From an uncultured Akkermansia sp. (GTDB lineage: Bacteria > Verrucomicrobiota > Verrucomicrobiia > Limisphaerales > UBA9464): a DNA stretch of 64,000 nt. A program made the position numbers and the translations under genes. The DNA lies in contig CAYSGH010000016.1 in the NCBI GenBank assembly GCA_964430505.1, forward strand, positions 499 to 64,498, written 5' to 3'. How positions within the stretch are numbered: the first letter of the stretch is position 1; every line of letters begins with the position of its first letter. Positions 8,527 through 49,238 of this stretch are shown here, one piece after another. The notes beneath the pieces are model-generated. The model was not told the DNA's origin. It did no database searches and saw only the letters and a list, made by a program, of their open reading frames with translations.

Positions 8527-9279
8527 ATGCAATTCACGGCCCGTGCCCGGGCCATGGCATGGAAGGGGCCGATGAAGACATCGATGACGACGTTCCAAGG
8601 AGAGACGCAAGGCGTTGGGCAGGCGGCCGGCGGCGGCGACCGGGGCATCCCCCTGGGCTGGAAGCTGGCCTTCACGGCGTTCATGGCCGTGTGGGTGCCG
8701 GTGTACTGGACCCAGTATGGCCCCACGAACTTCCTCTATTTCTGCGACGTGGCCTTGTTCCTGACCCTGGCGGGGATGTGGCTGGAGAACCGGTTGCTGC
8801 TGTCGATGGCGGCGGTGGGAATCCTGCTGCCGCAGTTGTTCTGGTGCGCGGACTTCGTGGTGCAGGCGATGGGCGGGCGGCTCACGGGGATGACGGAGTA
8901 CATGTTCGATGCACGGCGGCCCCTGTTCCTCCGGGGCCTGTCGTTGTTCCACGGTTGGCTGCCGTTCCTGCTGCTGCTTGCGTTGCGGCGGCTGGGCTAC
9001 GACCGCCGGGCTCTTCCCGCGTGGACGGGGACCGCCTGGGCATTGTGCCTGGTGAGCTTCCTGCTGCTGCCCCCGGCCGGGCCGGAGCACGCGGGCAAGC
9101 TCACGCCCAACAACGTGAACTACGTCTGGGGCTTCGACGACGCCCGCCCGCAGGCGTGGCTGCCGCCGGGGCTCTACCTGATGGCGTGGATGGGGTCGCT
9201 GGCGGGCTTGGTCTATGCGCCCACGCACCTGCTGTTGTCCCGCTGGAGCCATGCTCGTGGACGGTGCACCGGCGCGTGA
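8527..9279 (+). CDS. hypothetical multi-pass integral membrane protein
   Basis: ATG 4 nt after the upstream stop. At least 5-6 hydrophobic helices (WKLAFTAFMAVWVPVYW, FLYFCDVALFLTLAGMW, LLLSMAAVGILLPQLFW, LSLFHGWLPFLLLLAL, WALCLVSFLLL, LYLMAWMGSLAGLVYA). I do not recognise the family. Confidence 0.55.
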   Translation: MQFTARARAMAWKGPMKTSMTTFQGETQGVGQAAGGGDRGIPLGWKLAFTAFMAVWVPVYWTQYGPTNFLYFCDVALFLTLAGMWLENRLLLSMAAVGILLPQLFWCADFVVQAMGGRLTGMTEYMFDARRPLFLRGLSLFHGWLPFLLLLALRRLGYDRRALPAWTGTAWALCLVSFLLLPPAGPEHAGKLTPNNVNYVWGFDDARPQAWLPPGLYLMAWMGSLAGLVYAPTHLLLSRWSHARGRCTGA

Positions 9280-9475: not shown

Positions 9476-10768
9476 ATGGAAACACACGCGCGAGGCAGCC
9501 GTTGCCCCCTCCTCACCGGACCGGCCATTACCACGGCGCTGTGCCTGGCATTGCTGCTCCTGAAGCCACGCCGCGCCCTTGCGCAGGGCCGGGTCGAGTA
9601 TCGCTACGAGGACTATCGCGAGGACGGCAACCGCATGGACGTCCAGACGCACACGGCGTGGTTCGAGTACGCGTTGCACGAGAAGGTCACCGCGCGCGGG
9701 TCGTTCACGCGCGACGCGCTGGCGGGGGCCACGCCCACCGGCGGCCCCGGTGAACCCGGTGGCCCCGGCTACGAGTGGGTCAACATGCGGGACTTGCGCA
9801 ACGCAGGCTTCGTCGAGGCGTCCATCCGGGCCGGGCGCACGCTGACGACCCCGCAGGTCGCCTACAGCGAGGAGAGCGACTACCAGTCCACGGGCCTGTC
9901 GTTGACGGAGACCATCGACTTCAACCAGCGCAACACCTCGTTGGTGCTCGGCGTGGCTCGGAACTCGGACTCCGTGAAGGGGCGCTTCCAGAGGACCTTC
10001 CGGCACAAGGGCACGTGGGACTGGCTCGTGGGCGTCAACCAGGTCCTAGGGCCCCGCACCTACGCCACCTTCAACGTCACGCTGGGCTACGCGGACGGAT
10101 ACCTCAGCGACCCCTACAAGGGCGTGAACGTGTTCTTCGACCTGCCCGGCGACGTGTTCGACGCCAACCCATGGTACGCGGTGGACCCGGAGAAGCGGCC
10201 GTCCAGCAAGTTCAAGCAGGTGGCGTTCGCCAGCATCAACCACCTCGTGCCCGCCGTGAACGGCGCGGTCGATGCCAGCTATCGTTTCCACCACGACAAC
10301 TGGGGCGTGATCGCCAACACCGTGCAGGTGGGCTGGGCGCAGAAGCTCGGCCAGCGCGTCACGGTCGCGCCCTTGTTCCGGTACCATCACCAGACGGCGG
10401 CGGACTTCTTCGTGGCGCGGGTGAACTCGGACCCCGCCTTCGCGGGGAGCCGCGTGGCCTTCGATTCCACCAACAACTTTGTCGGCCAGGAGGGCGTGGA
10501 CCCGGGGTTCGACCTCGCCCTCGCGGACCCGGCCAACTACCAAATCGTCTCCATTCCGGCCTACCCGGACCATTACTCGGCGGATTACCGGCTGAGCGAG
10601 CTCCAGTCGTTCACCTTCGGCGTCAGCGTGGCCGTGCAAGTCCATGAACGCGCGACGTTGGTGCTGGGTTATCGGCGCTATGACATGCAGGGGCTCGACC
10701 CTCGCATCTCGGCGGCGACGTACCCGGACGCCCACATCTACAGCGTGGGCCTCAGCGCCACCTTCTAG
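9476..10768 (+). CDS. DUF3570-family predicted outer-membrane beta-barrel protein
   Basis: ATG at 9476 inside ORF 9215..10768 gives the signal peptide METHARGSRCPLLTGPAITTALCLALLLLKPRRALAQG. The body alternates in beta-barrel style (RVEYRYEDYREDGNRMDVQTHTAWFEYAL...) and ends in an aromatic residue (...YSVGLSATF). The family call comes from recollection of DUF3570 sequences and its usual neighbourhood with DUF4266, ApbE and thioredoxin genes. Confidence 0.65.
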   Translation: METHARGSRCPLLTGPAITTALCLALLLLKPRRALAQGRVEYRYEDYREDGNRMDVQTHTAWFEYALHEKVTARGSFTRDALAGATPTGGPGEPGGPGYEWVNMRDLRNAGFVEASIRAGRTLTTPQVAYSEESDYQSTGLSLTETIDFNQRNTSLVLGVARNSDSVKGRFQRTFRHKGTWDWLVGVNQVLGPRTYATFNVTLGYADGYLSDPYKGVNVFFDLPGDVFDANPWYAVDPEKRPSSKFKQVAFASINHLVPAVNGAVDASYRFHHDNWGVIANTVQVGWAQKLGQRVTVAPLFRYHHQTAADFFVARVNSDPAFAGSRVAFDSTNNFVGQEGVDPGFDLALADPANYQIVSIPAYPDHYSADYRLSELQSFTFGVSVAVQVHERATLVLGYRRYDMQGLDPRISAATYPDAHIYSVGLSATF

Positions 10769-10774
10769 GCCCGC

Positions 10775-11794
10775 ATGTCCCCTGCCCTTCCCAGCACGAG
10801 TCCCAGCCTCGGAGTTGCCCGGCCCGTCCCGGTGGACGCCGTGCGCACCCGGATTCTGGAGGGGGCGCGCCTGGGCAAAGGGCCCGGTTCCAACGAGTTG
10901 GCGTTCGCCGCCATGGGCACCCGTTGCCGGGTTTCGTTCGCCACGCCCTCGCCCGAGCCCGTGGCCCACGCCGTCATCGATTGGGTGGCCGCGTTCGAGG
11001 CACGATACAGCCGGTACCTGCCGGAGAGTTGGGTCTCCCAGGTCAACGCGGAGGCCGGGGGACACTGGATGCCCATGGATGCGGAGGCGGAGGCCTTGAT
11101 GCGCTTGTGCGGGCAGTTGGCCTACCTAACCCATGGGGCCTTGGATGCCACCGCGCTGCCCGTGGTCCAACTGTGGGATTGGAAGGTCGGCCGCGTGCCG
11201 TCCGATGCGGAGGTGGAGCACGCGCGGACGTTGGTGGGCTGGAAGAACGTCCAGTTCGCGCCGGGCAAGGTCCGGCTCCCCAAGCCCGGGATGGCGATCG
11301 ACCTCGGCGGCGTGGGCAAGGAATACGCCGTGGACCAAGTCATCCTCCTGCTGGCGCGGATGGGAGTCTCGTCGGCGTTGGTGGACTTTGGGGCGGACAT
11401 CCGGGTGTTGGGCCTGCCGGCGGATGGGCGGCCAGCGTGGAAGATCGGGCTGGAGGACCCGCGCAAGCCGGGCACGCCGTGGACGCACGTGGTGGTTCGG
11501 GACGGCGCGGTGGCGTCGTCGGGCGCCTACCTCCGCGGCTTTGAGTCCAGCGGCCGGCGATATGGCCACATCGTGGATCCGCGCACGGGACGGCCGTCGG
11601 CAAGCGACGTCTTGGCGGCGAGCGTGATGGCCCCGAGTTGCACGCAGGCGGGCATGTTGAGCACGGCGTTGTGCGTCCTGGGGTCGGACGCCGGGCGCCG
11701 CCTGCTGCTCGCCACTTCGGGGGTTGAGGGATGCATGGTTCTAGGCAATGGGTTCGTGGGCAGCGCAAGATTTCATGAATACGTCACGACGTAG
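10775..11794 (+). CDS. apbE: FAD:protein FMN transferase (ApbE family)
   Basis: 339 aa. AMGTRCRVSF..., ALDATALPVVQLWDWK, and AIDLGGVGKEYAVDQV (the ApbE GGIAKGYA-type motif). Starts 6 nt after the DUF3570 stop. Confidence 0.85.
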   Translation: MSPALPSTSPSLGVARPVPVDAVRTRILEGARLGKGPGSNELAFAAMGTRCRVSFATPSPEPVAHAVIDWVAAFEARYSRYLPESWVSQVNAEAGGHWMPMDAEAEALMRLCGQLAYLTHGALDATALPVVQLWDWKVGRVPSDAEVEHARTLVGWKNVQFAPGKVRLPKPGMAIDLGGVGKEYAVDQVILLLARMGVSSALVDFGADIRVLGLPADGRPAWKIGLEDPRKPGTPWTHVVVRDGAVASSGAYLRGFESSGRRYGHIVDPRTGRPSASDVLAASVMAPSCTQAGMLSTALCVLGSDAGRRLLLATSGVEGCMVLGNGFVGSARFHEYVTT

Positions 11795-12284
11795 CTTCGG
11801 GCTCCGGCTGCTGGCCGGGGCGTGGTGGGCGGCCTGGGCCCCGGCGTTTGCGGCGGGCCTGATCCAGGCCGGCGCGGACTTCCCGGACCTGTCCAAGGCC
11901 GGGCTGGAAGGCACGCTGCCGGACCTCAAGGGCAAGGTCGTGGTGGTGGACTTCTGGGCGAGCTGGTGCACGCCCTGCAAGAAGGCCATGCCCATGTACG
12001 CCGAACTGCACAAGGACTACGCGGGCAAGGACGTCGTCATCCTGGCCATCAGCCTCGACGAGGAGCGCAAGGCGTATGATGCGTTCCTCAAGAAGAACAG
12101 CCTCCCGTTCGCCGTCGCGCGCGACCCCAAGGGCAAGCTCGCCGAGACGGTGGGCGTGCAGGAGATGCCCACGTCGTTCGTCCTCGGCAAGGATGGCAAG
12201 GTGGCTTCCGTGCACAGCGGGTCGCTGGGCGACAAGGCCAAGGCGAAGCTTTCGGCGGAGATCGAGGGGTTGTTGAAGAAGTAG
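11775..12284 (+). CDS. TlpA-family periplasmic thiol:disulfide oxidoreductase
   Basis: ATG at 11775 (MNTSRRSFGLRLLAGAWWAAWAPAFAAG, a signal peptide) inside ORF 11748..12284. Thioredoxin fold with VVVDFWASWCTPCKKAMP (CxxC). Overlaps the apbE 3' end by 20 nt. Confidence 0.8.
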   Translation: MNTSRRSFGLRLLAGAWWAAWAPAFAAGLIQAGADFPDLSKAGLEGTLPDLKGKVVVVDFWASWCTPCKKAMPMYAELHKDYAGKDVVILAISLDEERKAYDAFLKKNSLPFAVARDPKGKLAETVGVQEMPTSFVLGKDGKVASVHSGSLGDKAKAKLSAEIEGLLKK

Positions 12285-12307: not shown

Positions 12308-12541
12308 ATGAAGGCAAGACTCGTGGGTTGGGCGGGGAAATGGGCCGGGTTGTTGGCGCTGGCGGCCTGGGCTGCGGGGTGCCAGGCGGTGAAGCCATGG
12401 CAAAGGGGACAGTTGTCCAACCCATTGATCCAGCCTGATCGCGACCCGTTGGGGCTGGCCTTGGCGGAGCATGTGTTCTTCTCGCGGGAGGCCGCCATGG
12501 GCGGCCGCGGCGTGGGCGGCGGCGGTTGCGGGTGCAACTGA
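12308..12541 (+). CDS. DUF4266-family small lipoprotein
   Basis: 77 aa. Lipobox LLALAAWAAGC (Cys25). PWQRGQLSNPLIQPDRDPL...EHVFFSREAAMGG and the terminal GGGGCGCN tail match my recollection of DUF4266 proteins. Confidence 0.65.
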   Translation: MKARLVGWAGKWAGLLALAAWAAGCQAVKPWQRGQLSNPLIQPDRDPLGLALAEHVFFSREAAMGGRGVGGGGCGCN

Positions 12542-12593: not shown

Positions 12594-13781
12594 ATGAATG
12601 CAAAGAAATTGCCGGCATTGGTGGCGGCATTGTTCCTTCAGTTCGCGCCGCTGCTGCGGACGGTGGAGCCGGCGATGCTCGGCGTGTTGCAGCCCGTGTT
12701 CGTGTTGCTGCGCTGGGCCTCGGCGGCGGCCGCCGTCGCCGGCGGCGCACACGGCTTGTCCGGGGCAACCGGCCTTGCAACGTCTGCGGGAGTGCGCGGC
12801 ACCAACGGCGCAAGCCTCAGCTACCGCGTGCAGATCACCAGCGATGCCCACGGCACCGCAAAGTCCTACTCCGCCATCGGCTTGCCACCGGGCGTCTTGG
12901 TGGCCAGCTCCACGGGCGGCATCATTTCCGGAACGCCCTCGTCATCGGGAACCTTCGCCGCCCGCGTGACGGGATGGGAGTTTTCCAATCGAACGGGCGA
13001 CTCCTACACCGCCACCGTCACGTTCACCATCGTGGATGGCGCCCCGGTGATCTCGGCGCAACCCGCTCCCGTCACCGTGACGGAGGGCGGCACGGCGACG
13101 TTCTCCGTCACGGCCACGGGTTCCGCGCTGACCTATCGTTGGCTGCGCGACGGCCTCGAGCTTTCCGGCGCGACCAACGCCAGCCTGACCTTGAACCCGG
13201 TGAAGCTGACGGATGCCGGCCAGTATCGGGTGCGCGTGCAGAACTCCGGAGGCTCCTTGTTGAGCGCCGAGGCTCTGCTGACCGTGAACCCGATCATCGT
13301 GCCGCCCGTGTTCTCAACCTCGCCTGTCGGGAAGACCGTCCATCCCGGCGAATCCCTGACACTGACGGCCGTTGCAATCGTGCCGACCCCGGGGGTGACG
13401 CCCACGTACTCGTGGACGCGGGAGGGCTCGCCCGTGGACGGCACCGGTGAAACCCTCGTGCTCAACGCAGTCACCGCGAGCCAAGCGGGCCAGTATCGCG
13501 CCATTGCCACTGCCCATGGCCTCTCGTCCACGTCGGCTCCCGCCGCCGTCGTCGTGGTGGGCGACCTTCGCCTGTCGCCACCCAACCTTTTCGGCACCGT
13601 CGCCATGATGGGGACCGAAGCCATCCCGGGCAGGCGCTACATCCTCGAGCGTTCCGGCGACCCTGCCGCCACGACGTGGACCCTCGTCTCGGATCAGGTG
13701 TCGTCCGGCGGGTCCGTAAGTTGGTCCGACACGTCGCCGCCGCCCGACGCGGGTTTGTATCGGGTGCGGGTCCTCCCCTAG
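12594..13781 (+). CDS. secreted immunoglobulin I-set repeat protein
   Basis: ATG at 12594 (MNAKKLPALVAALFLQF...) inside ORF 12471..13781. A putative cadherin/Ig-like segment (YSAIGLPPGVLVASSTGGIISGTPSSSG), then two I-set domains (PVTVTEGGTATFSVTATGSALTYRWLRDG...DAGQYRVRVQN; VHPGESLTLTAV...QAGQYRAIAT), then a C-terminal module IPGRRYILERSGD...LYRVRVLP. Confidence 0.7.
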   Translation: MNAKKLPALVAALFLQFAPLLRTVEPAMLGVLQPVFVLLRWASAAAAVAGGAHGLSGATGLATSAGVRGTNGASLSYRVQITSDAHGTAKSYSAIGLPPGVLVASSTGGIISGTPSSSGTFAARVTGWEFSNRTGDSYTATVTFTIVDGAPVISAQPAPVTVTEGGTATFSVTATGSALTYRWLRDGLELSGATNASLTLNPVKLTDAGQYRVRVQNSGGSLLSAEALLTVNPIIVPPVFSTSPVGKTVHPGESLTLTAVAIVPTPGVTPTYSWTREGSPVDGTGETLVLNAVTASQAGQYRAIATAHGLSSTSAPAAVVVVGDLRLSPPNLFGTVAMMGTEAIPGRRYILERSGDPAATTWTLVSDQVSSGGSVSWSDTSPPPDAGLYRVRVLP

Positions 13782-17640: not shown

Positions 17641-17895
17641 GCCATCACTTTGATGGCGCCGTTGGATGCCGTCAACGCGGCGGCAAACATCCGGGGAAGG
17701 CTCCCGTGAAACCACAACGGCAGAACGGGCCGACGCCCGGTTCCCTCGACCACAGGGTTTCCATTGCTCCCGTTGAGAGCCCCAACCCAAGACTCCGGCC
17801 CATGCCCTGAAAGGCTGCCTCTCCCGGAGGCCCGGAGCCCCCCGCTCCCCGAACGCGCCCTCGCGTCCGGCGCGTCCGTCGATAACCTGTCGGCG

Positions 17896-19980
<2,085 letters not shown>

Positions 19981-38354: not shown

Positions 38355-41300
38355 CTATCGGACCTCGACCGCCCGGAAGAGCACCGGTTGGTCGGCGGCG
38401 CCGGCATCCACGGAGAAGGTCAGGCCGGAGCTGGTGGCGGTCCATTCGGCCTCGGACCACCACGATCCGAGGTCGGTGGACGACTCAATCCGATAACGGC
38501 GGCCGGGGGTGCCCCTCAGTTGAAGGGTGACGCGGCCATCGGGCCCGAACGTGGGGATTCCGAAGGTTGGCTCGCCCGAGGCTGGCTCGCCGTTGGAGGC
38601 CATGGGCGTGGGCTTGGCGACCACGTAGGAACCGGCCGCACCGTCCGGCTGGAGCCCGACGGCGGTGTTGAGCGCGGACGGAATCTGCGCGGTGAACCAG
38701 TCGATGGTGTTCGCCTGGCCGTTGACCGAACGGGTCAGCGCCAGCCGGAGTTGTGCACCGCCGGTCAATGGGAGCCGGAAGTTGGCATGGAGCTCATTCG
38801 GCCGCGATTGCTCGGGCTCGCCGTCGGCAAAGACGACGAGGTATCCGAGCGGCGGGAGGGTCGCTCCCTGGGGGAATGGCCACTTGAAGGGGGCAACGTC
38901 GGCGTCGGATAGGAAGACGCCATCCAGGGCGACCGGGAAGGCGCTGGTGTTGACGATCTCGATCCAGGGCTCGGTGGTGCCGGTGGCGTCCGCGAGGCCG
39001 GACGTATTGCGGGCCACGACCTCGTTGATGCGCAGCGGCGGGAACTCCGGCAACGACGCCACGACGTTGTTGGGGGCTCCGGGCGTGGAGGGGGAGTTGG
39101 ATCCACCCTGGAGGACCAGCTCGAGCCCGAAGACGACGTCCGAGCTGCCCACGTTCGCCTGGTGCACCTCGACGGCGAACGTGTTCTCGCCGGGGACGAG
39201 CAGGCTGGCGGGGAGCGTGAAGGGTCCCTCGAAGGCGGCGTCGCCCACGACCCGGTTCGCGAAGGTGTCATGGGTGGGATCGACGGACTCGTCCATGCCC
39301 AGGGAATGGGCGCGTCGGCCGTTGATCCAGAGGACGTAGCCGTCATCGAGGCAGACAGTGAGCTGGAGGGATGCGTCCGGCGGGAGGGCTGGCAACGTCA
39401 CCTTGCGGCGGAAGTAGTAGGTGGACTGGCCCAGGGCGAGCGCCGTGGTCTTGTTCGTGGGCAGGGCGGCGTTCTCGACGTAGTGAAGGCCCTCGCCCGA
39501 GAACCACGCCGAGTCATTGAACCCGGCCGTGCGCCAGTTGGTGCCGCTCACGGGCGGCCCGTCCTGGAAGTACCGCCATGCGTCGGTGAACCGGATGAGG
39601 TTGCGGCTGCCGGTGAAGGCGCCGGACACGGCCCAGTTCCCGGGCCTGTTGCGGTCCTGACGCGCGTCCACGAGCTGGAGCGACGCGTTGGTGGCCGCCG
39701 TGCCGCCCGCCCACGGGTAGCCGGAATCGTAGTCGAGCCGGTCGAGGATTTCCGAGGGCTGGGACGCCGAAGCCGGGGTGCGCAGGACGATGGAGTCGAA
39801 CTGGGTCCCGAGGCCGCCTGTCCATGCACCGGCCACGTTGGGGCCGTTGCCAAACGCGGCCCGGAAGGCGGCGACGTTTTGGACGACAACCACCTGCGCG
39901 GCGGGCGCAAGGACCGTGCCCGACGGGAACGCAAAGCGAATGCTGGAACCCACCAGTTCCATGCCGGAGATGTCCCAGGGCGTGTTGGTGGAGCGGTTGA
40001 AGATCTCGATGAACTGCGTCCCCGGCGTCTGCGGGCGGCGAAGGACCTCGTTGATCACCAGCTTCGGGCGCGCACGGGTGACCACCTCGACGACGCGCGT
40101 GGCCGAAAGATTCGGCATGGCATCGTCCGTCACGCGCACGGTCACCCGGTTCGTCGATGCGCCCATGTCGTCGGGCAACCGCCATTCGAGGTCGCCCGTC
40201 TCCGGGTTGATGGTCGCCCCGGCAGGCGCGCCCGGCTCGAGGCTGAAGCGGAGCGTTTGGCGGGGCAGGTCCGCATCCGAGGCGACGGCACGCACCGCGA
40301 TGCGTTGGCCCTCGTCCACGACCAGAACAGGCACGGGCGCGAGGACAGGTGGTTGGTTCACCTCGCGGACGTTGATCAACACCTCGCGGACCACGGACGC
40401 CTGCTCGGGCGAGGTGTCGCGTGCGCGGACGAGGACGACGTAGCTGCCGGGGCCCTGGGCCTCCGTGGGCGTCCATGAAATGCGGCCGGCCGATGCATCG
40501 ATCGCGAGGCCGGCGGGAACGGTTCCCTCGAGCGAGAAACGAACGGGCGATCCCTCGGGATCGGCCGCGACGAGGGGAAGATCCAGGCGGGTCAGCTCGT
40601 CGATGGTGACGGGCGCGGGCTGTGGGAAGTTGGGCGGGTTGTTGACCTCCGCGACGTTCACTCGGACGAGGCCGGTCGCGGAAAGCGGCGGCGTGCCGTT
40701 GTCCGTGACACGGAAGGCGACCGTCACGACGGAGCCGCCGCGCGACTCGTCCGGGATCCAGGTGAGTTGGCCCGTTGGCGAGAGGGAAAGGCCATCCGGC
40801 ACGGGTCCGTCCACGGCAAACGCCAGCGTGTTGGCGGGAAGGTCGGGGTCGGACGCAGGCAACCCGATGCTGAGGAGCTGACCCTCGCCGGCGTTGGCCT
40901 CGGTCACCTCCGGGACGACGGGCGGGCGATTCACCTCGGCAACGTTGATGGCGACGCGGGTGGTCCCGGTCCGGGGCGGCGCGCCGTTGTCCGTGGCGCG
41001 AACGAGGAACGAAAAGGTCCCGGGGCCATCGGACTCGGAGGGGGTCCAGCGGAAGGCGCCCGTGACGGGATGGATGCTGGATCCAGGCGGGGCATCGGAC
41101 CCCAGCGAGAAGGCAAAGGACTGGCCCGCGTCTGGGTCGGAGGCGACGGCGGTGAAGGTGGCCTCGGCCTGCTCGGGGACGTTGAGGCTCGCGACGGGAT
41201 TGAGGACGGGCGGGCGATTGGCCCCGGCGATCACGTTGGCCGCGCCCGGCGTGGGGGACTCCATGGCGAACAAGGGCGGCGCGGACGCATCGGGGAAGCG

Positions 41301-44300
41301 ACCCATGGAGACGTCGTTGGTCTGGGCGGTGAAGGAGAAGCCATCGACGAGGTTGCCGGCGGGGTCGAAGAGCCCGATTTGCTCCCCGGAACGGGCGAGG
41401 GCGAAGGCGGCGTGCAGCCCGGCGTTCGTAGGCTGGTTCTGCGCCGTCTCGTTGTCGGCCCACACGAGGAGGAAGCCCCCGGGCGGGATCGCGTAGCCGC
41501 CGGGGATCCGGAACATCGAGGCCAACGCGTTGGTGAGGTTGTCGGTGAGGTAATACCCCGCGAGGTCCACGGGCTGCGTACCGGCGTTGTGGAGCTCGAT
41601 CCAGTCGTCGAAGTCGCCATCGGCCGGGTCGGTGACGGTGCGGGTGTTCTGCGCCATGAACTCGTTGATGAACACGTCCACGCGGGGCGTGCTCGGGTCG
41701 TTGGTGCCGCCCGGGGTCGGGTTGAAGAGGATGCGGCGCGTGCGGGGCTCGCCGTCGGGAACGGACCCGAACGCGCGGCCCTGCGGCAACAGGTCCCACG
41801 CCAGGTAGTCGATCGCGGCGGGAGCATTGGCGGTTCCCTGCCGCCGCGAGAGTGCCACCACGCCGTTGGTGGGGTTCAGCCGGAAGGACGTGTGCGGGAT
41901 GGTGGCGGTGGACTCGCCGGGCTCGCCGTCGGCCCACACCGTGAGAATGCCGCCCGCCGGGATGGAGAGCCCGGCCGGGAACGCCCACTGGACCAGGTTC
42001 GTGACGGAGTCCGACAAGAAGAGCCCAGACAAGGAGACGGCGGCGGGGCCGGTGTTGATGATCTCGATGAAGGGGTCGCGGTCCCCGAAGTTGTCGGCGG
42101 GACCGGACAGGTTGCCGGGCAACACCTCGTTGAGCCACAGGCTGGGGAAGGCCGCCAGGGATTGGGCGGTGGCGTTGGCACGGCCGGGCGTTGCGGCATT
42201 GGCGGCGTTCGTGGCGGTCGTGGCCCAGTTGCCGACGCGCCACGAGCCGCGGGATGGGTCGATGAGCTGCAAGGATGGCCCGAGGCCGTCGGCGTTGGTG
42301 GGCCAAGGGAGGCGGTTGTCGTACCGCACGTCGGTGACGAGGACGCGGTTGGTGCCCACGTTTTGCCAGAGGGCGATGCGTTCGCCGCCGTTGTCGAGGG
42401 AGCCTGGGAACTCGCCGAACACGGGAACCGATGCGCCGTACGCGGACGCGAACGCAACGCGGTCGCGTGCCAGCACCAGGAAGGCCCCGGGCGCGAGCAC
42501 GGAACCCGGGGGGAACGTGTAGCCGACGCCCTCGAGGTCGAACCCGGAAAGGTCGAACGCGGAGGACGTGGAACGGTTGTGCAACTCGACGAAGGAGGTG
42601 CCGGAGGCAGGGCCGTTGTACTGGACCTCGTTGAGGACGACGAAGTCGGAGGCCCTCTGGAACGCGCCGGCATAGGTGACCGTCACGTTGGCGGCCATGC
42701 CCGGGATGGCGTGGCCGGACCGGTCGGTAGCAGTAAGGACGAGGGCGTTGGTGGCGGCGGACAAGGGGATGCGAAGCCGGAACCGCTGCGGGTCGATCCA
42801 CTCGGTGGGGACGGTGCGCCCGTTGACCAGGATGTCGGCGGCGGCGAACGGCGCAATGCCCTCGACGGTGGCGACGGGCGTTGGAGACGCGAGCGTGCCA
42901 TTGGCGGGGACGGTGATCGCGAAGGAGGCGGCGTCGCTGGCGGCGATCTGCTGCCGGACGACCTCGCGGCGTGCATCGAGGTAGGAGGCGATGCCCAGGG
43001 GGCCGCTGGCGTTGATGCGATTGAACGCGAGGGAAGCCGAGCGCGCGTCGAACTGGGGCTGGTATTGCGAAGGCTGGAACGGCCCGGCCACGGCCTGCGC
43101 ATAGGCACGCCAGGCCATGCGTCGGAAGGCAGGCCACGCGAACATGTAGTTCACGTTGCCGTCGTTGCCGTCGAAGAGCCTGCGGCCGGGGCCGTCGCCG
43201 GCGCCGAGCACCCAGTCCATGTCCCAGGGCAGGATGACCCAACGGCCGCCGGGCGGATAATAGACGTACTTGTTCTGCGAGTTGCCCGTGCCCCACGTGT
43301 CCCAGTTCCCCATGCAGCCATCGAGGGCGAACATGGTCATCCACTGCTCCATGTCGGCGACGTTGCTGACGACGGCCTCGTAATTCGTGGAGCGGTTGTT
43401 CGCGGCGGAGACCAACGCGAGGAAGTTGGTGAAGTCATTCGCCGTCGTGCCGTTCGGGCGCCCCTGCCAGTTCCAGCGGTAGCGCGACAGGTTGAACTGG
43501 CCGTTGGGGTTGCGGTAGTCGCCCAGGTCGGCCCCGACGACGTCGAAGCCGCCCCCGCTGTTGAACTCGAACCAGAACGCCACCTTGTGGAGGTCGCCCT
43601 CGGGCGCGTCCGGGTACCACGCCTCGGCGTAGTTGTTGTTGGGCTGCTCCAGGTCCTCCCCGACGGCCCCGTGCGGGTTGCCGTTGCGGAAGAACCGGAT
43701 GTAATGGGCATGGAGGTAGGGAAGGCCCATGCGCCGCGTGAACCACTGGGCCATCTGGTTGCGCAGGAAGGTGGGTTCCTCGCCGCCGTTGCCCGTGAGG
43801 CCAAAGACCCTGTCCGTCACGCCGAGGAGCCGGTCGTCGCGCGGGACCGTGACGGCGAAGTCCGCCTGGCCCGTGAAGGGGCTGCCCTTGCGGCGGATGC
43901 CCGCGTTGTAAATCACGCGGACGTTGCCATGGACCAGCGTCCCGTCGCGGAACGTGTTGTCGAGCCCGTCGGCGTTCAGGGCGTTGTCCACCTCGGGCGT
44001 CGTCCACGAGTGGATGTGCTCGTAGGTGCCGAACGGCACGGGGTCGCCCCAGCGAACGTTGGCCTCCGCCACGGCGGGCAAGCCCGCGATGACAGGCCCG
44101 GATGGGAATGTGGACCAGGCAACGCTCGGCGCGCCATCCGCCGCCTCGATCCGGAACTGGACGAGGCTGCCGGCGGAACGGCCCGTGATCGTCGCCGACC
44201 ACACGCCGTCGCCCGCCACGGCGTCGCCCAGCAACCCGTCGTCGCGCATGGCAGTCGTGCTGAAGGCGCCGGTAGAACCGCTCCGGAAGCGCAGGTTGAC

Positions 44301-47300
44301 CGAGCTGAGGCCGTCGGGGTCGGACACGCGGGCGGTGACCACCACCGGCTGGCCGGCATCGGGCACGGCGGGCGCATGGGAAACGTTGTGGATGCCGGGG
44401 CCGGCGTTGGCAACGAGCCGGCTGTTCGGCTGTCCGGGCGTTCCCAGGTTGCGCGGGACCGCCATGCGCGCGGTCATCTCCAGGCCGCCGCCGCGCGTGC
44501 GCATCAGCAACTCGGGCCAGCCCGCCACCCAACGGGCGCGCAGCCGCATCGTCCCGCGGACGTCGTTGTTGAGCCCTCCGCTGATCGGGGCACGAACGCA
44601 GTTCCGCCCGGCGTCGAGGTCGCCCGGGGCGATGACGCGCAGCACGCGGCTGCCCGCGAAGGCACCCGTGGCCTCCACGCGCGAACGCGAGTGGTGGCCG
44701 CCAAACGTCCAGCCAGTTGCGGCCGTGCCTGATCCAGCTTCAAAGCCGCCGTTGGACAGAAGGGCGAGGCCCGTCGGACCCAGGACCTCCACGTTGTCCA
44801 CGAGGCATTCCCCAGCACCCAGCATCCCCAGGTGGACCCAGTCCGGCGTCTGCGAGCCGAACCGGAGCACGTCGTTCACAGAGAACTCCTGCCAAGGGGC
44901 CTTGCCCGACTCGTCGGAATCCGCCCAACTCGGCGCCCGCAACGGGTCGGCCCTCGGGTCGATCAACTCCAGGGACGAGCCGCCGCCATCGGCCCACTTG
45001 CCCCAGCGGCCCCCATCCCGCCATGCGACCTCTCCCACGGGGATCGCAACCGTGCGGGACGTCACCTCGCCGAGGTCGTTGGTGGACAAGATTTCGTCCG
45101 GCTTGGACAGCGTGATCCGTTCGCCGCGGTTGCGAAGGGAACCAGACCAGTTGCCGTGCACGATGGCAGGCGGAAGCGAGGTGTGGTTGGAGAGAAGCCG
45201 GGCGCGGTCGGCCCCCACCACGACGAAGCCGCCCGCCGGGACCGTCACGCCCTGCGGGAAGGTGAAGCTCACGGCGTCGGACAGGCGCCAGCCCGAGAGG
45301 TCCACGGGCGCCCCGGACCGGTTGTGCAGCTCGACAAACTCGTCGGCGTCGTCCTGCGAGATCGGGTTGTACATGATCTCGTTGATAACCATGTCCTCGA
45401 GGCGTCGCGGGTCATTGGCGGCCCCGGGCGTGCGGCCGGCCAGCCGGCGCGGCTCCGGAGCCCCGTCCGGCGCGCGGCCGAAGGAGACCCCGTTCTCCTG
45501 TGCATCGAGTCGGATCACGTCAACGACGCGCAGGCCATTGGAGCTGACCAGGAAGACCGTCTCGCCGGCCGCGTTCAGTCGGAAGCCGAGCGCCGACTCG
45601 TCCAAGGCGAGGAACGCGCGCGGAGCCAGCGTCGTGCCCGCCGGGAACCGGTACCGGTTGGTGCGGACGTCGTCGGTCAGCACCCACCCGTCGAGCGCGA
45701 CGGGGTTGGGTCCCCGGTTGTACAGCTCCACGAAGTCCACCAACGGAGGGTCCGTGTGCGCGAGCAACTCGTTCAGGACGACGGCATCCGACGGGTCCAC
45801 GACGATCGGATCCGGCGCGCCGGGGTTGCCCCCACGGACGGCACTGGCGGCATAGGCTCGCGGGTCTGCCTCGCCGAAGCTCGGGTTCACCAGCACCAGC
45901 GAATGGCCGGAGCCATCGGCCGCGACGGGCCACGGGGCGCGGTTGTCGTACTCGAGATACAGCTTCTGCGCGCCCAGCTCGTCGCGCAGCTCGATGACGT
46001 CGCCGCCGTTGTTCAGCGAGCCCGTGAACGGGCCGAGCACGCGCGCCAGGCCCGTGCGGGTCCTCGTCACGCCCGGGTCGGCCGAGACCACCAGGAACTG
46101 CCCGCCGGCAAGGTGTGTCCCCGGCGGGAAGGTGTAGGAAATGCCGCCTCGCAACGACCAGCCCGAGAGGTCCTCGGCGATGTCCGACGCGTTGAACACC
46201 TCGACGAACTCGGGGCCGGACCCCGGGCCGGACGCGGCCGGGTTGTAGTGGATTTCGCTGAGGACGACCCGCGTCCTCCGGCTGGAAACGCCCAGCCCCT
46301 CGCGCGTGGGCACGAAGGGTGCCGTCGTCGGGGCGGGCGCCGGGCCAAGGTCGGCAAACCTCGCGACGGCGGTGACGTCCGCGTTGCGTCCCGCCAGCGA
46401 CAACCCCACCGAGAGCTGGGCGGGCATCGCGGCATTGACGGCGCCCAGCTGTGTCCATCGCGATCCATCGAGGGAGGCAAAGCCCGTAAAGTCGTTCCCC
46501 ACTCGGCGCAGGCGCAGCCATGTGAACGGGTGGTTGACGGGGAAGCCGCCTCGAATCGAGGCCGCGTTGGCGACGGCGGAGGCGGCGTTGCGGGACTCAA
46601 AGAACACGCCGGCCCTGGGCGTGGACGCGAACACGCCGGCGAAGGGCGCGTTGCTGCCCAGGCCGGAGCGCGCCATCAACCCGGCCGTGGCAAACGGGTC
46701 CGCCGCGTCGAGCATCGTGACTCGCACGCGCAGGTCGAAGTTGCCACTGACGGCCTGCCATCCGAACCCGGCGACGTCCGCCGTGCCGCCGACGTCGCCG
46801 CCGCGCGCCGTCAGCTCGAAGGCCCCGGCGTCGGCCCGGACAACCGTCGCTCCGACGGCTTCGGAGCCGAGGTTGGCCGGGGACAACTCGGACGCGAAGA
46901 AGGCGATGGTGGCGTTGGCGGCCAGGGGGTTGGCGGCGGCAGCACGGTCGGTGACGCCGTTGACGGTGACGGTGTAGCGGGTCCCCACGGCGAGGTTGGC
47001 CACGTTGAGCTGGATTCGCTGGGGCGCGTTGCCTTGGGCGGCAGACAGGAGCGTGGCGCCGCCGGTGATCTGGTAGGCGGACGCGAGCGGGAGGGACGAC
47101 GGGAGAATGGGCTCGGAAAACTCCAGGACGACGGTGTCGAGGCCCACATTGTAGGCGCGGACCAGGGTGGGCGGCACGACGTCGGCCACCACGCCAAGGA
47201 CGGCATCGGCGCTGGTGGTGCCGCCGATGTCATTGCCCACGACGACCGAGAACTGGGCCCCGTTGGCGGAGAGCGAGGCGGCGGGAAGGGTGAACGAGGC

Positions 47301-49163: not shown

Positions 49164-49238
49164 GTGAAACCAAGGCTGAATCAGCACAAACCGTGCTAGG
49201 AAACTCCAACGCCGACACCGCCAGACTGCGGACAAGCC

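What the first reader, a model, noticed from the sequence alone, without database searches (positions are those of the whole stretch)
9713..9733. DUF3570 barrel protein carries a sequence fitting the ApbE flavinylation consensus (DALAGAT)
Residues 80-86 of the DUF3570 protein read D-A-L-A-G-A-T, followed by PTGGPGEPGGPG. The ApbE target motif described for NqrC, RnfG and related proteins is Dxx(s/t)gA(T/S), with FMN attached to the final Thr or Ser. Only the weakly conserved s/t position differs here (Ala). The motif sits in a Gly/Pro-rich, probably loop, segment right after the first predicted strands. The gene is 6 nt upstream of an otherwise substrate-less apbE. A flavinylated outer-membrane barrel would be a new class of ApbE client. 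The downstream Ig protein has a weaker candidate (HGLSGAT at 12750..12770) that lacks the Asp.
Basis: partly seen in the sequence, partly recalled or inferred. Interest (0 to 1): 0.7.

Follow-up and report, generated by a model that had tools for sequence, protein, structure and literature searches.

The report
Known flavin-tagged outer-membrane barrel (DUF3570)
The motif is real and almost certainly a site where the neighbouring enzyme ApbE attaches a flavin to an outer-membrane barrel protein, but this was shown experimentally for the same protein family in 2021, so the locus is a new example, not a new class.

Summary
DALAGAT is residues 80-86 of a PF12094 (DUF3570) protein. Its TAG stop lies 6 nt before apbE, which is followed by genes for a TlpA-like thioredoxin, a DUF4266 CxC lipoprotein and an Ig-domain protein.

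The motif column is essentially invariant: D, G, A, T/S and P in 119/119 aligned Verrucomicrobial homologues. It is also present in 76/79 loci from other phyla that were found with motif-independent patterns.

Méheust et al. (eLife 2021) showed that Chlorobium luteolum DUF3570 is flavinylated by its cognate ApbE at two [S/T]GA[S/T] sites, and they described this same gene cluster. The window motif aligns with site 1 of a Chlorobium homologue. Site 2 is absent here. Ala at -3 is a rare but recurrent variant.

An AlphaFold model (pLDDT 93.7) gives a 16-strand barrel. The motif sits at the outer end of strand 3, on the side predicted to be extracellular.

Three points are not discussed in the papers I read:
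- DUF3570-linked ApbEs lack a signal peptide in 134/134 loci.
- The Ig partner carries a conserved x-x-[VL]-S-G-A-[TS] motif in its most conserved segment.
- The flavin site is predicted at the barrel's outer mouth.

The parts
9476..10768 (+). DUF3570 gene: 430-aa precursor of a predicted 16-strand outer-membrane beta-barrel ending in ...SATF
   Evidence: Pfam PF12094, E 4.8e-57. AlphaFold2 model: mean pLDDT 93.7, pTM 0.85, 16 strands. Foldseek against PDB finds only outer-membrane barrels: Cir, OccD2, FadL, BcsC, CdiB, OmpG.
9476..9583 (+). Predicted Sec signal peptide (residues 1-36, METHARGSRCPLLTGPAITTALCLALLLLKPRRALA, then QG)
   Evidence: The sequence shows it directly. Maximum 12-residue hydropathy is 2.67. 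The model has a helix at 15-28 and strand 1 starts at residue 39. The cleavage site is inferred, not predicted with a dedicated tool.
9713..9733 (+). Flavinylation motif D80-A-L-A-G-A-T86. Thr86 (9731..9733) is the predicted FMN acceptor. It corresponds to 'site 1' of the family.
   Evidence: sequence. (column invariant, 119/119). (aligns with DSVSGAS of a Chlorobium homologue). PMC8238504 (both motifs flavinylated in C. luteolum).
9734..9775 (+). Pro87 plus the Gly/Pro-rich loop L2 between strands 3 and 4. In many other family members this is where the second [ST]GA[ST] site lies. That site is absent here.
   Evidence: Model: strand 71-87, loop 88-100, strand 101-119, with mean pLDDT 94 (residues 81-90) and 91 (residues 91-100). 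Alignments A2 and one search place site 2 opposite the window's 'EPGGP'.
10775..11794 (+). apbE (FAD:protein FMN transferase) with no N-terminal signal peptide
   Evidence: Pfam PF02424, E 1.5e-70. Aligns with solved ApbE/Ftp structures 1vrm, 4xdt and 6nxi, keeping DLGG.GK, GHIVDP and LSTA. Maximum N-terminal hydropathy is 1.05. The same holds in 69/69 PVC and 65/65 other-phyla orthologues.
11775..12284 (+). TlpA/ResA-like periplasmic thioredoxin. It has a Tat-like MNTSRRSFGLRLL N-terminus and a CTPC active site at 11967..11978. An alternative start at 11748 is possible. The gene overlaps the apbE 3' end.
   Evidence: Pfam AhpC-TSA, Thioredoxin_8 and Redoxin. NCBIfam ResA/TlpA-like. Sequence. 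RRxF is conserved in many but not all orthologues.
12308..12541 (+). DUF4266 small lipoprotein (lipobox ...AAG|C) ending in the C-terminal CxC motif CGCN (CxC at 12527..12535)
   Evidence: Pfam PF14086, E 2.4e-19. Sequence. The CxC feature is described in PMC8238504.
12594..13781 (+). Ig-domain partner protein (395 aa): a conserved hydrophobic N-terminal segment, a flexible linker, then four beta-sandwich domains
   Evidence: Pfam Ig_3, Ig_2 and I-set. AlphaFold2: helices 3-50 at low confidence, residues 44-58 below pLDDT 50, four confident beta domains. Follows DUF4266 in 50 of the 80 PVC loci (strict check); an Ig homologue lies somewhere in 66 of the 80.
12750..12770 (+). H53-G-L-S-G-A-T59 in the Ig partner: a candidate second ApbE site (unproven)
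   Evidence: Among 50 orthologues: H53 50/50, S56 50/50, G57 45, A58 49, T59 48 with S 2. Intact in 71/83 unique loci, with D/E/Q/N replacing His in more distant ones. Residues 9-61 are the most conserved part of the protein (0.82 versus 0.51-0.71).

Best explanation
The gene encodes a Verrucomicrobial member of the DUF3570 family. It is a Sec-exported, 16-stranded outer-membrane beta-barrel that serves as a substrate of the ApbE encoded 6 nt downstream.

ApbE uses FAD to attach FMN by a phosphoester bond to Thr86, the last residue of D80-A-L-A-G-A-T86. This is 'site 1' of the two sites shown to be flavinylated in Chlorobium luteolum DUF3570. Site 2 is missing in this clade. Ala replaces the usual Ser at -3, a position the enzyme does not strictly read.

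The barrel works with the co-encoded TlpA-like thioredoxin (CTPC) and the DUF4266 CxC lipoprotein as a thiol/flavin extracytosolic electron-transfer module.

Shown here: motif presence, column conservation, synteny, barrel fold, and an ApbE that keeps the conserved sequence motifs.

Inferred:
- Flavinylation of this particular protein.
- The side of the membrane. The site is predicted at the extracellular mouth, with the Thr86 side chain pointing into the lumen. This rests on strand register and on the long-loop/short-turn pattern.
- The direction of electron flow and the terminal acceptor.
For: - Sequence and coordinates.
- Family assignments: PF12094, PF02424, thioredoxin folds and PF14086.
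- Motif column: invariant in 119/119 Verrucomicrobial homologues. Present in most full-length representatives of the 3,221 matching cluster representatives. Present in 76/79 loci from Proteobacteria, Myxococcota, Acidobacteriota, Chlorobium and others that were retrieved with motif-free patterns.
- Site mapping: the window motif aligns with DSVSGAS (site 1) of a Chlorobium sp. homologue.
- Experiment in the family: C. luteolum DUF3570 is flavinylated only with its cognate ApbE, and both Ser-to-Ala changes are needed to abolish it. The cluster ApbE + DUF3570 + Trx-like + DUF4266 was described in the same paper (PMC8238504).
- Tolerance of the variant: -3 is 'x' in the working motif DxxxGA[T/S] (PMC10722498). 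AGA[TS] at site 1 recurs in nine or more independent cluster representatives.
- Synteny: apbE was found downstream in 69/80 PVC loci and 67/79 loci from other phyla.
- Enzyme: ApbE keeps DLGG.GK, GHIVDP and LSTA when aligned to solved FMN transferases.
- Fold: high-confidence barrel model and outer-membrane-barrel-only fold matches.
Against: - No experiment was done on this protein.
- The literal published motif [S/T]GA[S/T] is not met at its first position (Ala83).
- The ApbE has no signal peptide although its substrate is exported, so where the two meet is unexplained.
- The site is predicted on the extracellular side of the barrel, away from the periplasmic thioredoxin and DUF4266.
- Motif conservation does not depend on an adjacent apbE. 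A few orthologues with degenerate SGSS/SGST still keep apbE.
- No DsbD or other inner-membrane electron donor was found among the 27 window proteins scanned.
Confidence: 0.8

Rival explanations
1. In this clade the DUF3570 motif is a structural relic, weakened by the Ser83-to-Ala change. The real client of the adjacent ApbE is the downstream Ig-domain protein, flavinylated at Thr59 in its flexible N-terminal linker. The barrel would serve only as its outer-membrane partner or pore.
For: - The Ig partner's S-G-A-[TS] is intact in 71/83 unique loci and lies in the most conserved segment of the protein.
- It sits in a low-confidence linker that an enzyme could reach.
- Loci whose DUF3570 reads SGSS/SGST still keep apbE, and in L034, L037, L130 and L154 the Ig partner's SGA[ST] is intact.
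- Replacing the motif Asp had only minor effects on flavinylation in K. pneumoniae fumarate reductase (PMC12052999).
Against: - The DUF3570 motif is invariant apart from the tolerated -3 position, which argues for continued selection.
- AGA[TS] at site 1 recurs across the family.
- The family outside PVC has no Ig partner yet keeps both apbE and the motif.
- The Ig motif directly follows an Ala-rich hydrophobic stretch, so it may partly reflect a signal-peptidase region.
Confidence: 0.1
2. The adjacency is incidental. This ApbE has no signal peptide, so it is a cytoplasmic flavin transferase serving an unrelated cytoplasmic flavoprotein such as a fumarate-reductase-like enzyme. The exported DUF3570 is never modified in vivo.
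For: - No hydrophobic N-terminus in 134/134 DUF3570-linked ApbEs.
- Cytoplasmic ApbEs with cytoplasmic clients are known (PMC12052999).
Against: - apbE is in the DUF3570 locus across many phyla.
- The motif on DUF3570 is near-invariant.
- Direct flavinylation was shown for a cognate pair (PMC8238504).
- No cytoplasmic FMN_bind-type client is encoded among the window proteins scanned.
Confidence: 0.05
3. The match is a chance occurrence in an Ala/Gly-rich protein from a 69% GC genome.
For: DxxxGA[ST] is expected 1.2 times per window by composition alone, and 3% of shuffles of this protein contain it.
Against: The column is conserved in 119/119 close homologues and in 76/79 distant, independently sampled homologues. 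It is the only match in 18,018 aa, and it falls in the one protein adjacent to apbE.
Confidence: 0.01

Closest known systems
Chlorobium luteolum DUF3570 (ABB24424.1) with its cognate ApbE (ABB24423.1); 'DsbD/DUF3570 system' of Méheust et al., eLife 2021 (PMC8238504)
   Same: Same Pfam family (PF12094) and the same cluster partners: ApbE, a thioredoxin-like protein and the DUF4266 CxC protein. The flavinylation site is in the same alignment column (site 1, using a Chlorobium sp. homologue).
   Different: - About 26% identity to the Chlorobium sp. homologue used as stand-in.
- Only one site here; site 2 is absent.
- The acceptor is Thr rather than Ser, and Ala rather than Ser sits at -3.
- No DsbD among the window proteins scanned.
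- An extra conserved Ig-domain gene follows.
- The C. luteolum sequence itself could not be fetched, so a congeneric MAG protein (L185) stood in for it.
FMN_bind domain proteins NqrC / RnfG / PplA (classical ApbE clients)
   Same: Same short acceptor motif D-x-x-[s/t]-G-A-[T/S] and the same enzyme family. FMN is linked through a phosphoester to the final Thr or Ser.
   Different: The fold is unrelated: a small alpha/beta FMN_bind domain versus a 16-strand membrane barrel. No PF04205 match. Different cellular location.
DUF2271, the other ApbE substrate identified in the same 2021 study
   Same: A domain of unknown function recognised as an ApbE client through orphan-apbE neighbourhoods and a conserved [S/T]GA[S/T] motif.
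   Different: DUF2271 is a small soluble periplasmic domain associated with PepSY-like membrane proteins. There is no sequence or fold relationship to DUF3570.
MtrAB-type porin-cytochrome outer-membrane electron conduits (analogy of mechanism only)
   Same: A large outer-membrane barrel associated with redox cofactors and periplasmic or surface partner proteins. MtrB (6r2q_B) appears among the generic barrel matches (rank 44).
   Different: The cofactor here is a covalently attached flavin on the barrel itself, not haems on an inserted cytochrome. No evidence that electrons cross the outer membrane. Structural similarity is only at the level of 'beta-barrel' (TM about 0.3).
Cytoplasmic ApbE of Klebsiella pneumoniae (client: soluble fumarate reductase)
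   Same: An ApbE without a signal peptide or lipobox (PMC12052999).
   Different: The Klebsiella enzyme's client is cytoplasmic. Here every co-encoded candidate client carries an export signal.

Membership tests
DUF3570 ApbE-substrate family (PF12094; Méheust et al. 2021) | Significant match to Pfam PF12094 | tested here: met
   E 4.8e-57, 194 bits against a cut-off of 25.
DUF3570 ApbE-substrate family (PF12094; Méheust et al. 2021) | Conserved flavinylation site 1 in the family's alignment column (working ApbE motif DxxxGA[T/S]) | tested here: met
   DALAGAT aligns with D-x-[ILV]-S-G-A-[TS] in 119/119 homologues and with DSVSGAS of Chlorobium sp.. The DxxxGA[T/S] motif is from PMC10722498.
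DUF3570 ApbE-substrate family (PF12094; Méheust et al. 2021) | Literal [S/T]GA[S/T] as published, i.e. Ser or Thr at -3 | tested here: not met
   Ala83. This occurs in 3 of 119 close homologues but recurs in at least nine 50%-identity cluster representatives.
DUF3570 ApbE-substrate family (PF12094; Méheust et al. 2021) | Second [S/T]GA[S/T] site 11-45 residues downstream | tested here: not met
   The window reads EPGGP at that position. No second conserved motif column exists in 120 Verrucomicrobial homologues.
DUF3570 ApbE-substrate family (PF12094; Méheust et al. 2021) | Adjacent apbE plus thioredoxin-like and DUF4266 genes | tested here: met
   The genes lie at 10775..11794, 11775..12284 and 12308..12541. 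All are encoded downstream of DUF3570 in 69-70 of 80 related loci.
DUF3570 ApbE-substrate family (PF12094; Méheust et al. 2021) | DsbD (PF02683) in the cluster as electron donor. This is optional: 316 published clusters lack it. | tested here: not met
   No PF02683 hit in the 27 window proteins scanned. A few ORFs, including the 3,627-aa one, were not scanned.
DUF3570 ApbE-substrate family (PF12094; Méheust et al. 2021) | Covalent FMN on the protein, dependent on ApbE and on the motif Thr/Ser | not testable with these tools
   Needs co-expression, UV-fluorescent SDS-PAGE and mass spectrometry.
ApbE FAD:protein FMN transferase (PF02424) | ApbE domain with conserved FAD/Mg/catalytic motifs | tested here: met
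   PF02424, E 1.5e-70. Aligned to 1vrm, 4xdt and 6nxi with DLGG.GK, Y.R.F...G..Y.HI.DP and LSTA retained. Assigning the catalytic His to 'GHIVDP' rests on my own knowledge of V. cholerae His257.
ApbE FAD:protein FMN transferase (PF02424) | N-terminal signal peptide or lipobox, typical of the periplasmic enzyme | tested here: not met
   Maximum 12-residue hydropathy is 1.05 in the window. None of 69 PVC or 65 other-phyla orthologues reaches 2.2, and many begin about 10 residues before the domain. This is a hydropathy heuristic, not SignalP.
Outer-membrane beta-barrel protein | Signal peptide; even number of antiparallel strands with short turns alternating with long loops; C-terminal aromatic residue | tested here: met
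   16 strands. Turns are 2-4 residues, against loops of up to 35 and 69 residues. The protein ends in ...SATF. Foldseek hits are all outer-membrane barrels.
ApbE client (Ig-domain partner, candidate only) | D-x-x-[S/T]-G-A-[S/T] in an accessible segment, conserved among orthologues | tested here: inconclusive
   S-G-A-T is present and conserved in a low-pLDDT linker. The -6 residue is His, not Asp, in the window; it is D/E in some distant orthologues. Asp-to-Ala had minor effects in one tested client (PMC12052999). No biochemical evidence.

The most novel reading that the evidence does not exclude
The five-gene cluster builds a flavin-based electron path across the outer membrane.

An ApbE of the cytoplasmic type (no export signal in 134/134 loci) flavinylates its clients before Sec export. 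One flavin ends up on Thr86 at the extracellular mouth of the DUF3570 barrel. A second ends up on Thr59 of the Ig-domain partner, making that protein a previously unrecognised ApbE substrate.

The periplasmic thioredoxin and the DUF4266 CxC lipoprotein would feed electrons from below.
Probability: 0.15. Interest if true: 0.65.

Novelty: new member of a known kind. Interest (0 to 1): 0.25.

Why it matters
As stated, the finding rediscovers a published result: DUF3570 is an ApbE substrate within a thioredoxin/DUF4266 cluster. Its value is mainly confirmatory. It shows that sequence reading alone recovered a real post-translational modification site.

The follow-up leaves three testable loose ends in a system whose function is still unknown:
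- The transferase appears to be cytoplasmic while its client is an outer-membrane protein.
- The flavin is predicted at the outer mouth of the barrel, not facing the periplasmic redox partners.
- PVC bacteria add a conserved Ig-domain protein with its own candidate flavinylation motif.

If these hold, the system would be a flavin counterpart of porin-cytochrome conduits, and an example of cofactor attachment before Sec export.

Tried and rejected
1. Fetching the tested C. luteolum protein.
- A PVC-like subgroup returned only PVC genomes.
- A proteobacterial-type subgroup finally returned a Chlorobium sp. MAG homologue (L185). I used it as a stand-in. The exact ABB24424.1 sequence was never obtained.

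2. The eLife supplementary tables were searched for Verrucomicrobia, PF13927, PF12094 and PF14086. Nothing was found in the text held.

3. 'Motif tracks adjacent apbE' was tested and not supported.

4. Tat hitch-hiking of the signal-less ApbE on the thioredoxin. This was considered because the window thioredoxin and many close orthologues carry an RRxF motif. It is rejected as a general explanation: many orthologous thioredoxins have plain Sec-type signals while their ApbEs still lack a signal.

5. Read-through fusion of DUF3570 and ApbE (same frame, TAG plus 6 nt) is not supported. Spacing differs among orthologues.

6. [quoted passage not shown]

7. NCBIfam has no model for DUF3570, DUF4266, the Ig partner or its N-terminal 80 residues.

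The orientation of Thr86 therefore rests on strand register and loop lengths only.
Full report
**1. Observation**

Window 9713..9733 encodes D-A-L-A-G-A-T. These are residues 80-86 of a 430-aa protein (ATG 9476, TAG 10766..10768). The motif is followed by PTGGPGEPGGPGYE. The protein matches Pfam PF12094/DUF3570 at E 4.8e-57.

Six nucleotides after its stop, an ApbE gene begins (10775..11794; PF02424, E 1.5e-70). Downstream come three more genes:
- a TlpA/ResA-like thioredoxin with a CTPC active site;
- a DUF4266 lipoprotein ending in CGCN;

All descriptive statements in the finding are therefore correct.

**2. More than chance?**

Taken alone, no. DxxxGA[ST] is expected about 1.2 times in the 18,018 residues of predicted window proteins. 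It occurs in 3% of shuffles of this protein. It does occur only once, in the protein next to apbE.

The decisive evidence is conservation. In an alignment of 120 homologues at 38-89% identity, D80, G84, A85, P87 and G89 are present in all 119 sequences that cover the region. T86 is T in 115 and S in 4. Position 83 is S in 116 and A in 3, the window among them.

A profile search of 1.84 billion cluster representatives finds 3,221 family members. Most full-length representatives carry the motif.

The first two locus searches used the motif itself as a search pattern. I therefore repeated the survey with patterns from elsewhere in the protein (GYLSDPYK, YRYYxDDW). Of 79 loci from Proteobacteria, Myxococcota, Acidobacteriota, Chlorobium, Spirochaetes and others, 76 have [D/E]-x-x-[STA]-G-A-[ST] at this place.

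**3. What it is**

This is a published system. Méheust et al. (eLife 2021, PMC8238504) examined orphan apbE neighbourhoods and found DUF3570. They reported two conserved [S/T]GA[S/T] motifs in 228 ApbE-associated DUF3570 proteins. They also showed in E. coli that Chlorobium luteolum DUF3570 becomes flavinylated when co-expressed with its cognate ApbE. Both serines had to be changed to alanine to abolish the signal.

They describe the same cluster composition: ApbE, DUF3570, a thioredoxin-like protein and DUF4266 with its C-terminal CxC. DsbD was present in 227 clusters and absent in 316.

My family survey sees the same two sites, with the second lying 11-45 residues after the first.

A Chlorobium sp. 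homologue reads ...TNDSVSGASPERNSHIVSGASK.... In alignment, its first site falls on the window's DALAGAT and its second on the window's EPGGP. The window protein and its whole Verrucomicrobial clade therefore keep only site 1.

**4. The Ala at -3**

The published logo motif requires Ser or Thr here, so the window is formally outside it. Three points suggest the variant is tolerated:
- The working recognition motif used for flavin-tagging with V. cholerae ApbE is DxxxGA[T/S], with -3 unspecified (PMC10722498).
- The mutational data summarised in the 2025 review identify the acceptor Thr as essential. Gly and Ala are partly important, and Asp is dispensable in one client (PMC12052999).
- AGA[TS] at site 1 recurs in at least nine independent 50%-identity cluster representatives.

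I consider the site functional, possibly with lower occupancy.

**5. Fold and position of the site**

AlphaFold2 on the 120-sequence alignment gives mean pLDDT 93.7 and pTM 0.85. The model has a helical signal peptide and then 16 antiparallel strands, and the protein ends in ...SATF.

Connections after even-numbered strands are 2-4 residues long. Connections after strands 3, 7, 9, 13 and 15 are 13, 8, 35, 69 and 11 residues. This is the usual outer-membrane pattern of short periplasmic turns and long external loops.

Foldseek against the PDB returns only outer-membrane barrels (Cir, OccD2, FadL, BcsC, CdiB, OmpG) at TM 0.3-0.46. The fold class is clear, but there is no close solved relative.

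The motif forms the last seven residues of the 17-residue strand 3 (71-87). It lies beyond the conserved aromatic positions 77 and 79. The Gly/Pro stretch is loop L2 (88-100).

By convention this places the motif at the extracellular rim. By strand register, Thr86 shares a face with D80, I/L82 and G84, the face opposite the aromatic positions 77 and 79. This suggests that the flavin points into the barrel mouth. This is inference; I could not inspect coordinates.

In the published experiment the substrate was recovered from inclusion bodies.

Neither the 2021 paper nor the 2024 follow-up describes DUF3570 as a barrel in the text I read. The latter only alludes to 'the outer membrane'.

**6. 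Synteny**

In the 80 most similar species-representative loci (all PVC), tblastn found ApbE in 69, the thioredoxin in 70, DUF4266 in 69 and an Ig-protein match in 66. Some contigs end early.

Motif integrity does not track apbE adjacency. The counts are 102 canonical with apbE, 22 canonical without, 5 non-canonical (SGSS/SGST) with, and 1 non-canonical without.

No DsbD, FMN_bind, NqrB/RnfD or DUF2271 protein was found among the 27 window proteins scanned.

**7. Things the literature I read does not discuss**

(a) The ApbE has no export signal.
- The window protein has 45 non-hydrophobic residues before the ApbE domain (maximum 12-residue hydropathy 1.05).
- By comparison, DUF3570 scores 2.67 and the Ig partner 2.25.
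- None of 69 PVC orthologues or 65 orthologues from other phyla reaches 2.2. Many proteobacterial ones start about 10 residues before the domain, even when the longest possible ORF is taken.
- The enzyme looks catalytically intact.
- Cytoplasmic ApbEs are known, but with cytoplasmic clients.
- The simplest reading is that DUF3570 is flavinylated in the cytoplasm before Sec export. This is unproven.

(b) The Ig partner.
- Its residues 9-61 are the most conserved part of the protein, with mean column identity 0.82 against 0.51-0.71 elsewhere.
- H53 and S56 are invariant. G57, A58 and T59 are present in 45, 49 and 48 of 50 orthologues, with S59 in the other 2.
- Over 83 unique PVC loci, [STA]GA[ST] is intact in 71. 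The -6 residue is H, D, E, Q or N.
- The degenerate forms are mostly S-A-A-[TS].
- AlphaFold places the motif in a low-confidence linker (residues 44-58, pLDDT below 50). The linker lies between N-terminal hydrophobic helices and four confident beta-sandwich domains.
- Intact motifs are enriched in loci that contain apbE (odds ratio 6.6, p = 0.02). The test is not corrected for phylogeny.
- The protein is a reasonable second-client candidate. However, the motif abuts an Ala-rich stretch that could be a signal-peptidase region.

(c) The thioredoxin has a Tat-like RRxF motif in the window and in many close relatives, but not in all.

**8. Verdict**

The claim of a new client class is superseded by the 2021 paper. 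This locus is a new, uncharacterised member of a known kind: a single-site variant with Thr as acceptor and AGAT in place of SGAT, plus a PVC-specific Ig partner. Interest in the finding as stated is low. The side observations on a cytoplasmic-type ApbE, an outer-mouth flavin and the Ig motif are where any novelty lies.

Noticed in passing
window 10775..11794; loci L001-L080 and L155-L233: The ApbE encoded next to DUF3570 has no hydrophobic N-terminal segment in 69/69 PVC and 65/65 other-phyla loci. Many of these proteins begin about 10 residues before the ApbE domain. The transferase is thus predicted to be cytoplasmic, yet its client is a Sec-exported outer-membrane barrel.
   Followed up: partly
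window 12594..13781 (motif 12750..12770); A4; loci L001-L154: An Ig-domain protein follows DUF4266 in 50 of the 80 PVC loci, and an Ig homologue lies somewhere in 66 of the 80. Its N-terminal residues 9-61 are its most conserved part and contain x-x-[VL]-S-G-A-[TS], intact in 71/83 unique loci, within a predicted flexible linker. It is not part of the published cluster description.
   Followed up: partly
window 11775..11813; thioredoxin orthologues in L001-L069: The TlpA-like thioredoxin starts MNTSRRSFGLRLL. Many Limisphaerales orthologues have classic RRxF[LM] twin-arginine motifs, while more distant ones have Sec-type signals. Tat export of a TlpA-like thioredoxin would be unusual.
   Followed up: partly
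L034, L037, L032, L102, L130, L154: Some DUF3570 orthologues read D-G-I-S-G-S-[ST]-P, with the motif Ala replaced by Ser. Four of them (L034, L037, L130, L154) still keep an adjacent apbE.
   Followed up: no
L025/L105 and L028/L122 (same contigs); JBGATF Limisphaerales MAG (L060/L134, L128, L129): Some genomes carry two or more DUF3570 paralogues. In two contigs a second copy lies about 2 kb downstream of the first, after the thioredoxin, DUF4266 and Ig genes, and no apbE is found in the locus.
   Followed up: no
proteins P0150, P0153, P0158, P0171, P0175, P0178, P0200: In some family members, loop L2 between the two flavinylation sites is expanded to 100 residues or more of Pro/Ala-rich and strongly acidic low-complexity sequence (runs of D/E).
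   Followed up: no
window 10766..10777: DUF3570 and apbE are in the same reading frame, separated only by TAG plus GCCCGC. Spacing is not conserved in orthologues, so read-through fusion seems unlikely.
   Followed up: partly
window 8527..9279: A 250-aa hydrophobic protein directly upstream of DUF3570 has no Pfam or NCBIfam match. It is found upstream only in the two closest relatives (L002, L003).
   Followed up: no
window 17710..19980: A 756-aa Thioredox_DsbH (DUF255) / Thioredoxin_7 protein is encoded 4 kb downstream of the cluster. Any link to the cluster is unknown.
   Followed up: no
window 38355..49238 (- strand): A single open reading frame of about 3,627 codons with coding-like GC3 (0.90). 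It was not examined.
   Followed up: no
bioRxiv 10.1101/2023.06.07.544157: In a few Proteobacteria, a JDVT-CTERM surface-sorted protein sits in the DUF4266/DUF3570/TlpA neighbourhood. This suggests lineage-specific partner proteins analogous to the PVC Ig protein.
   Followed up: no
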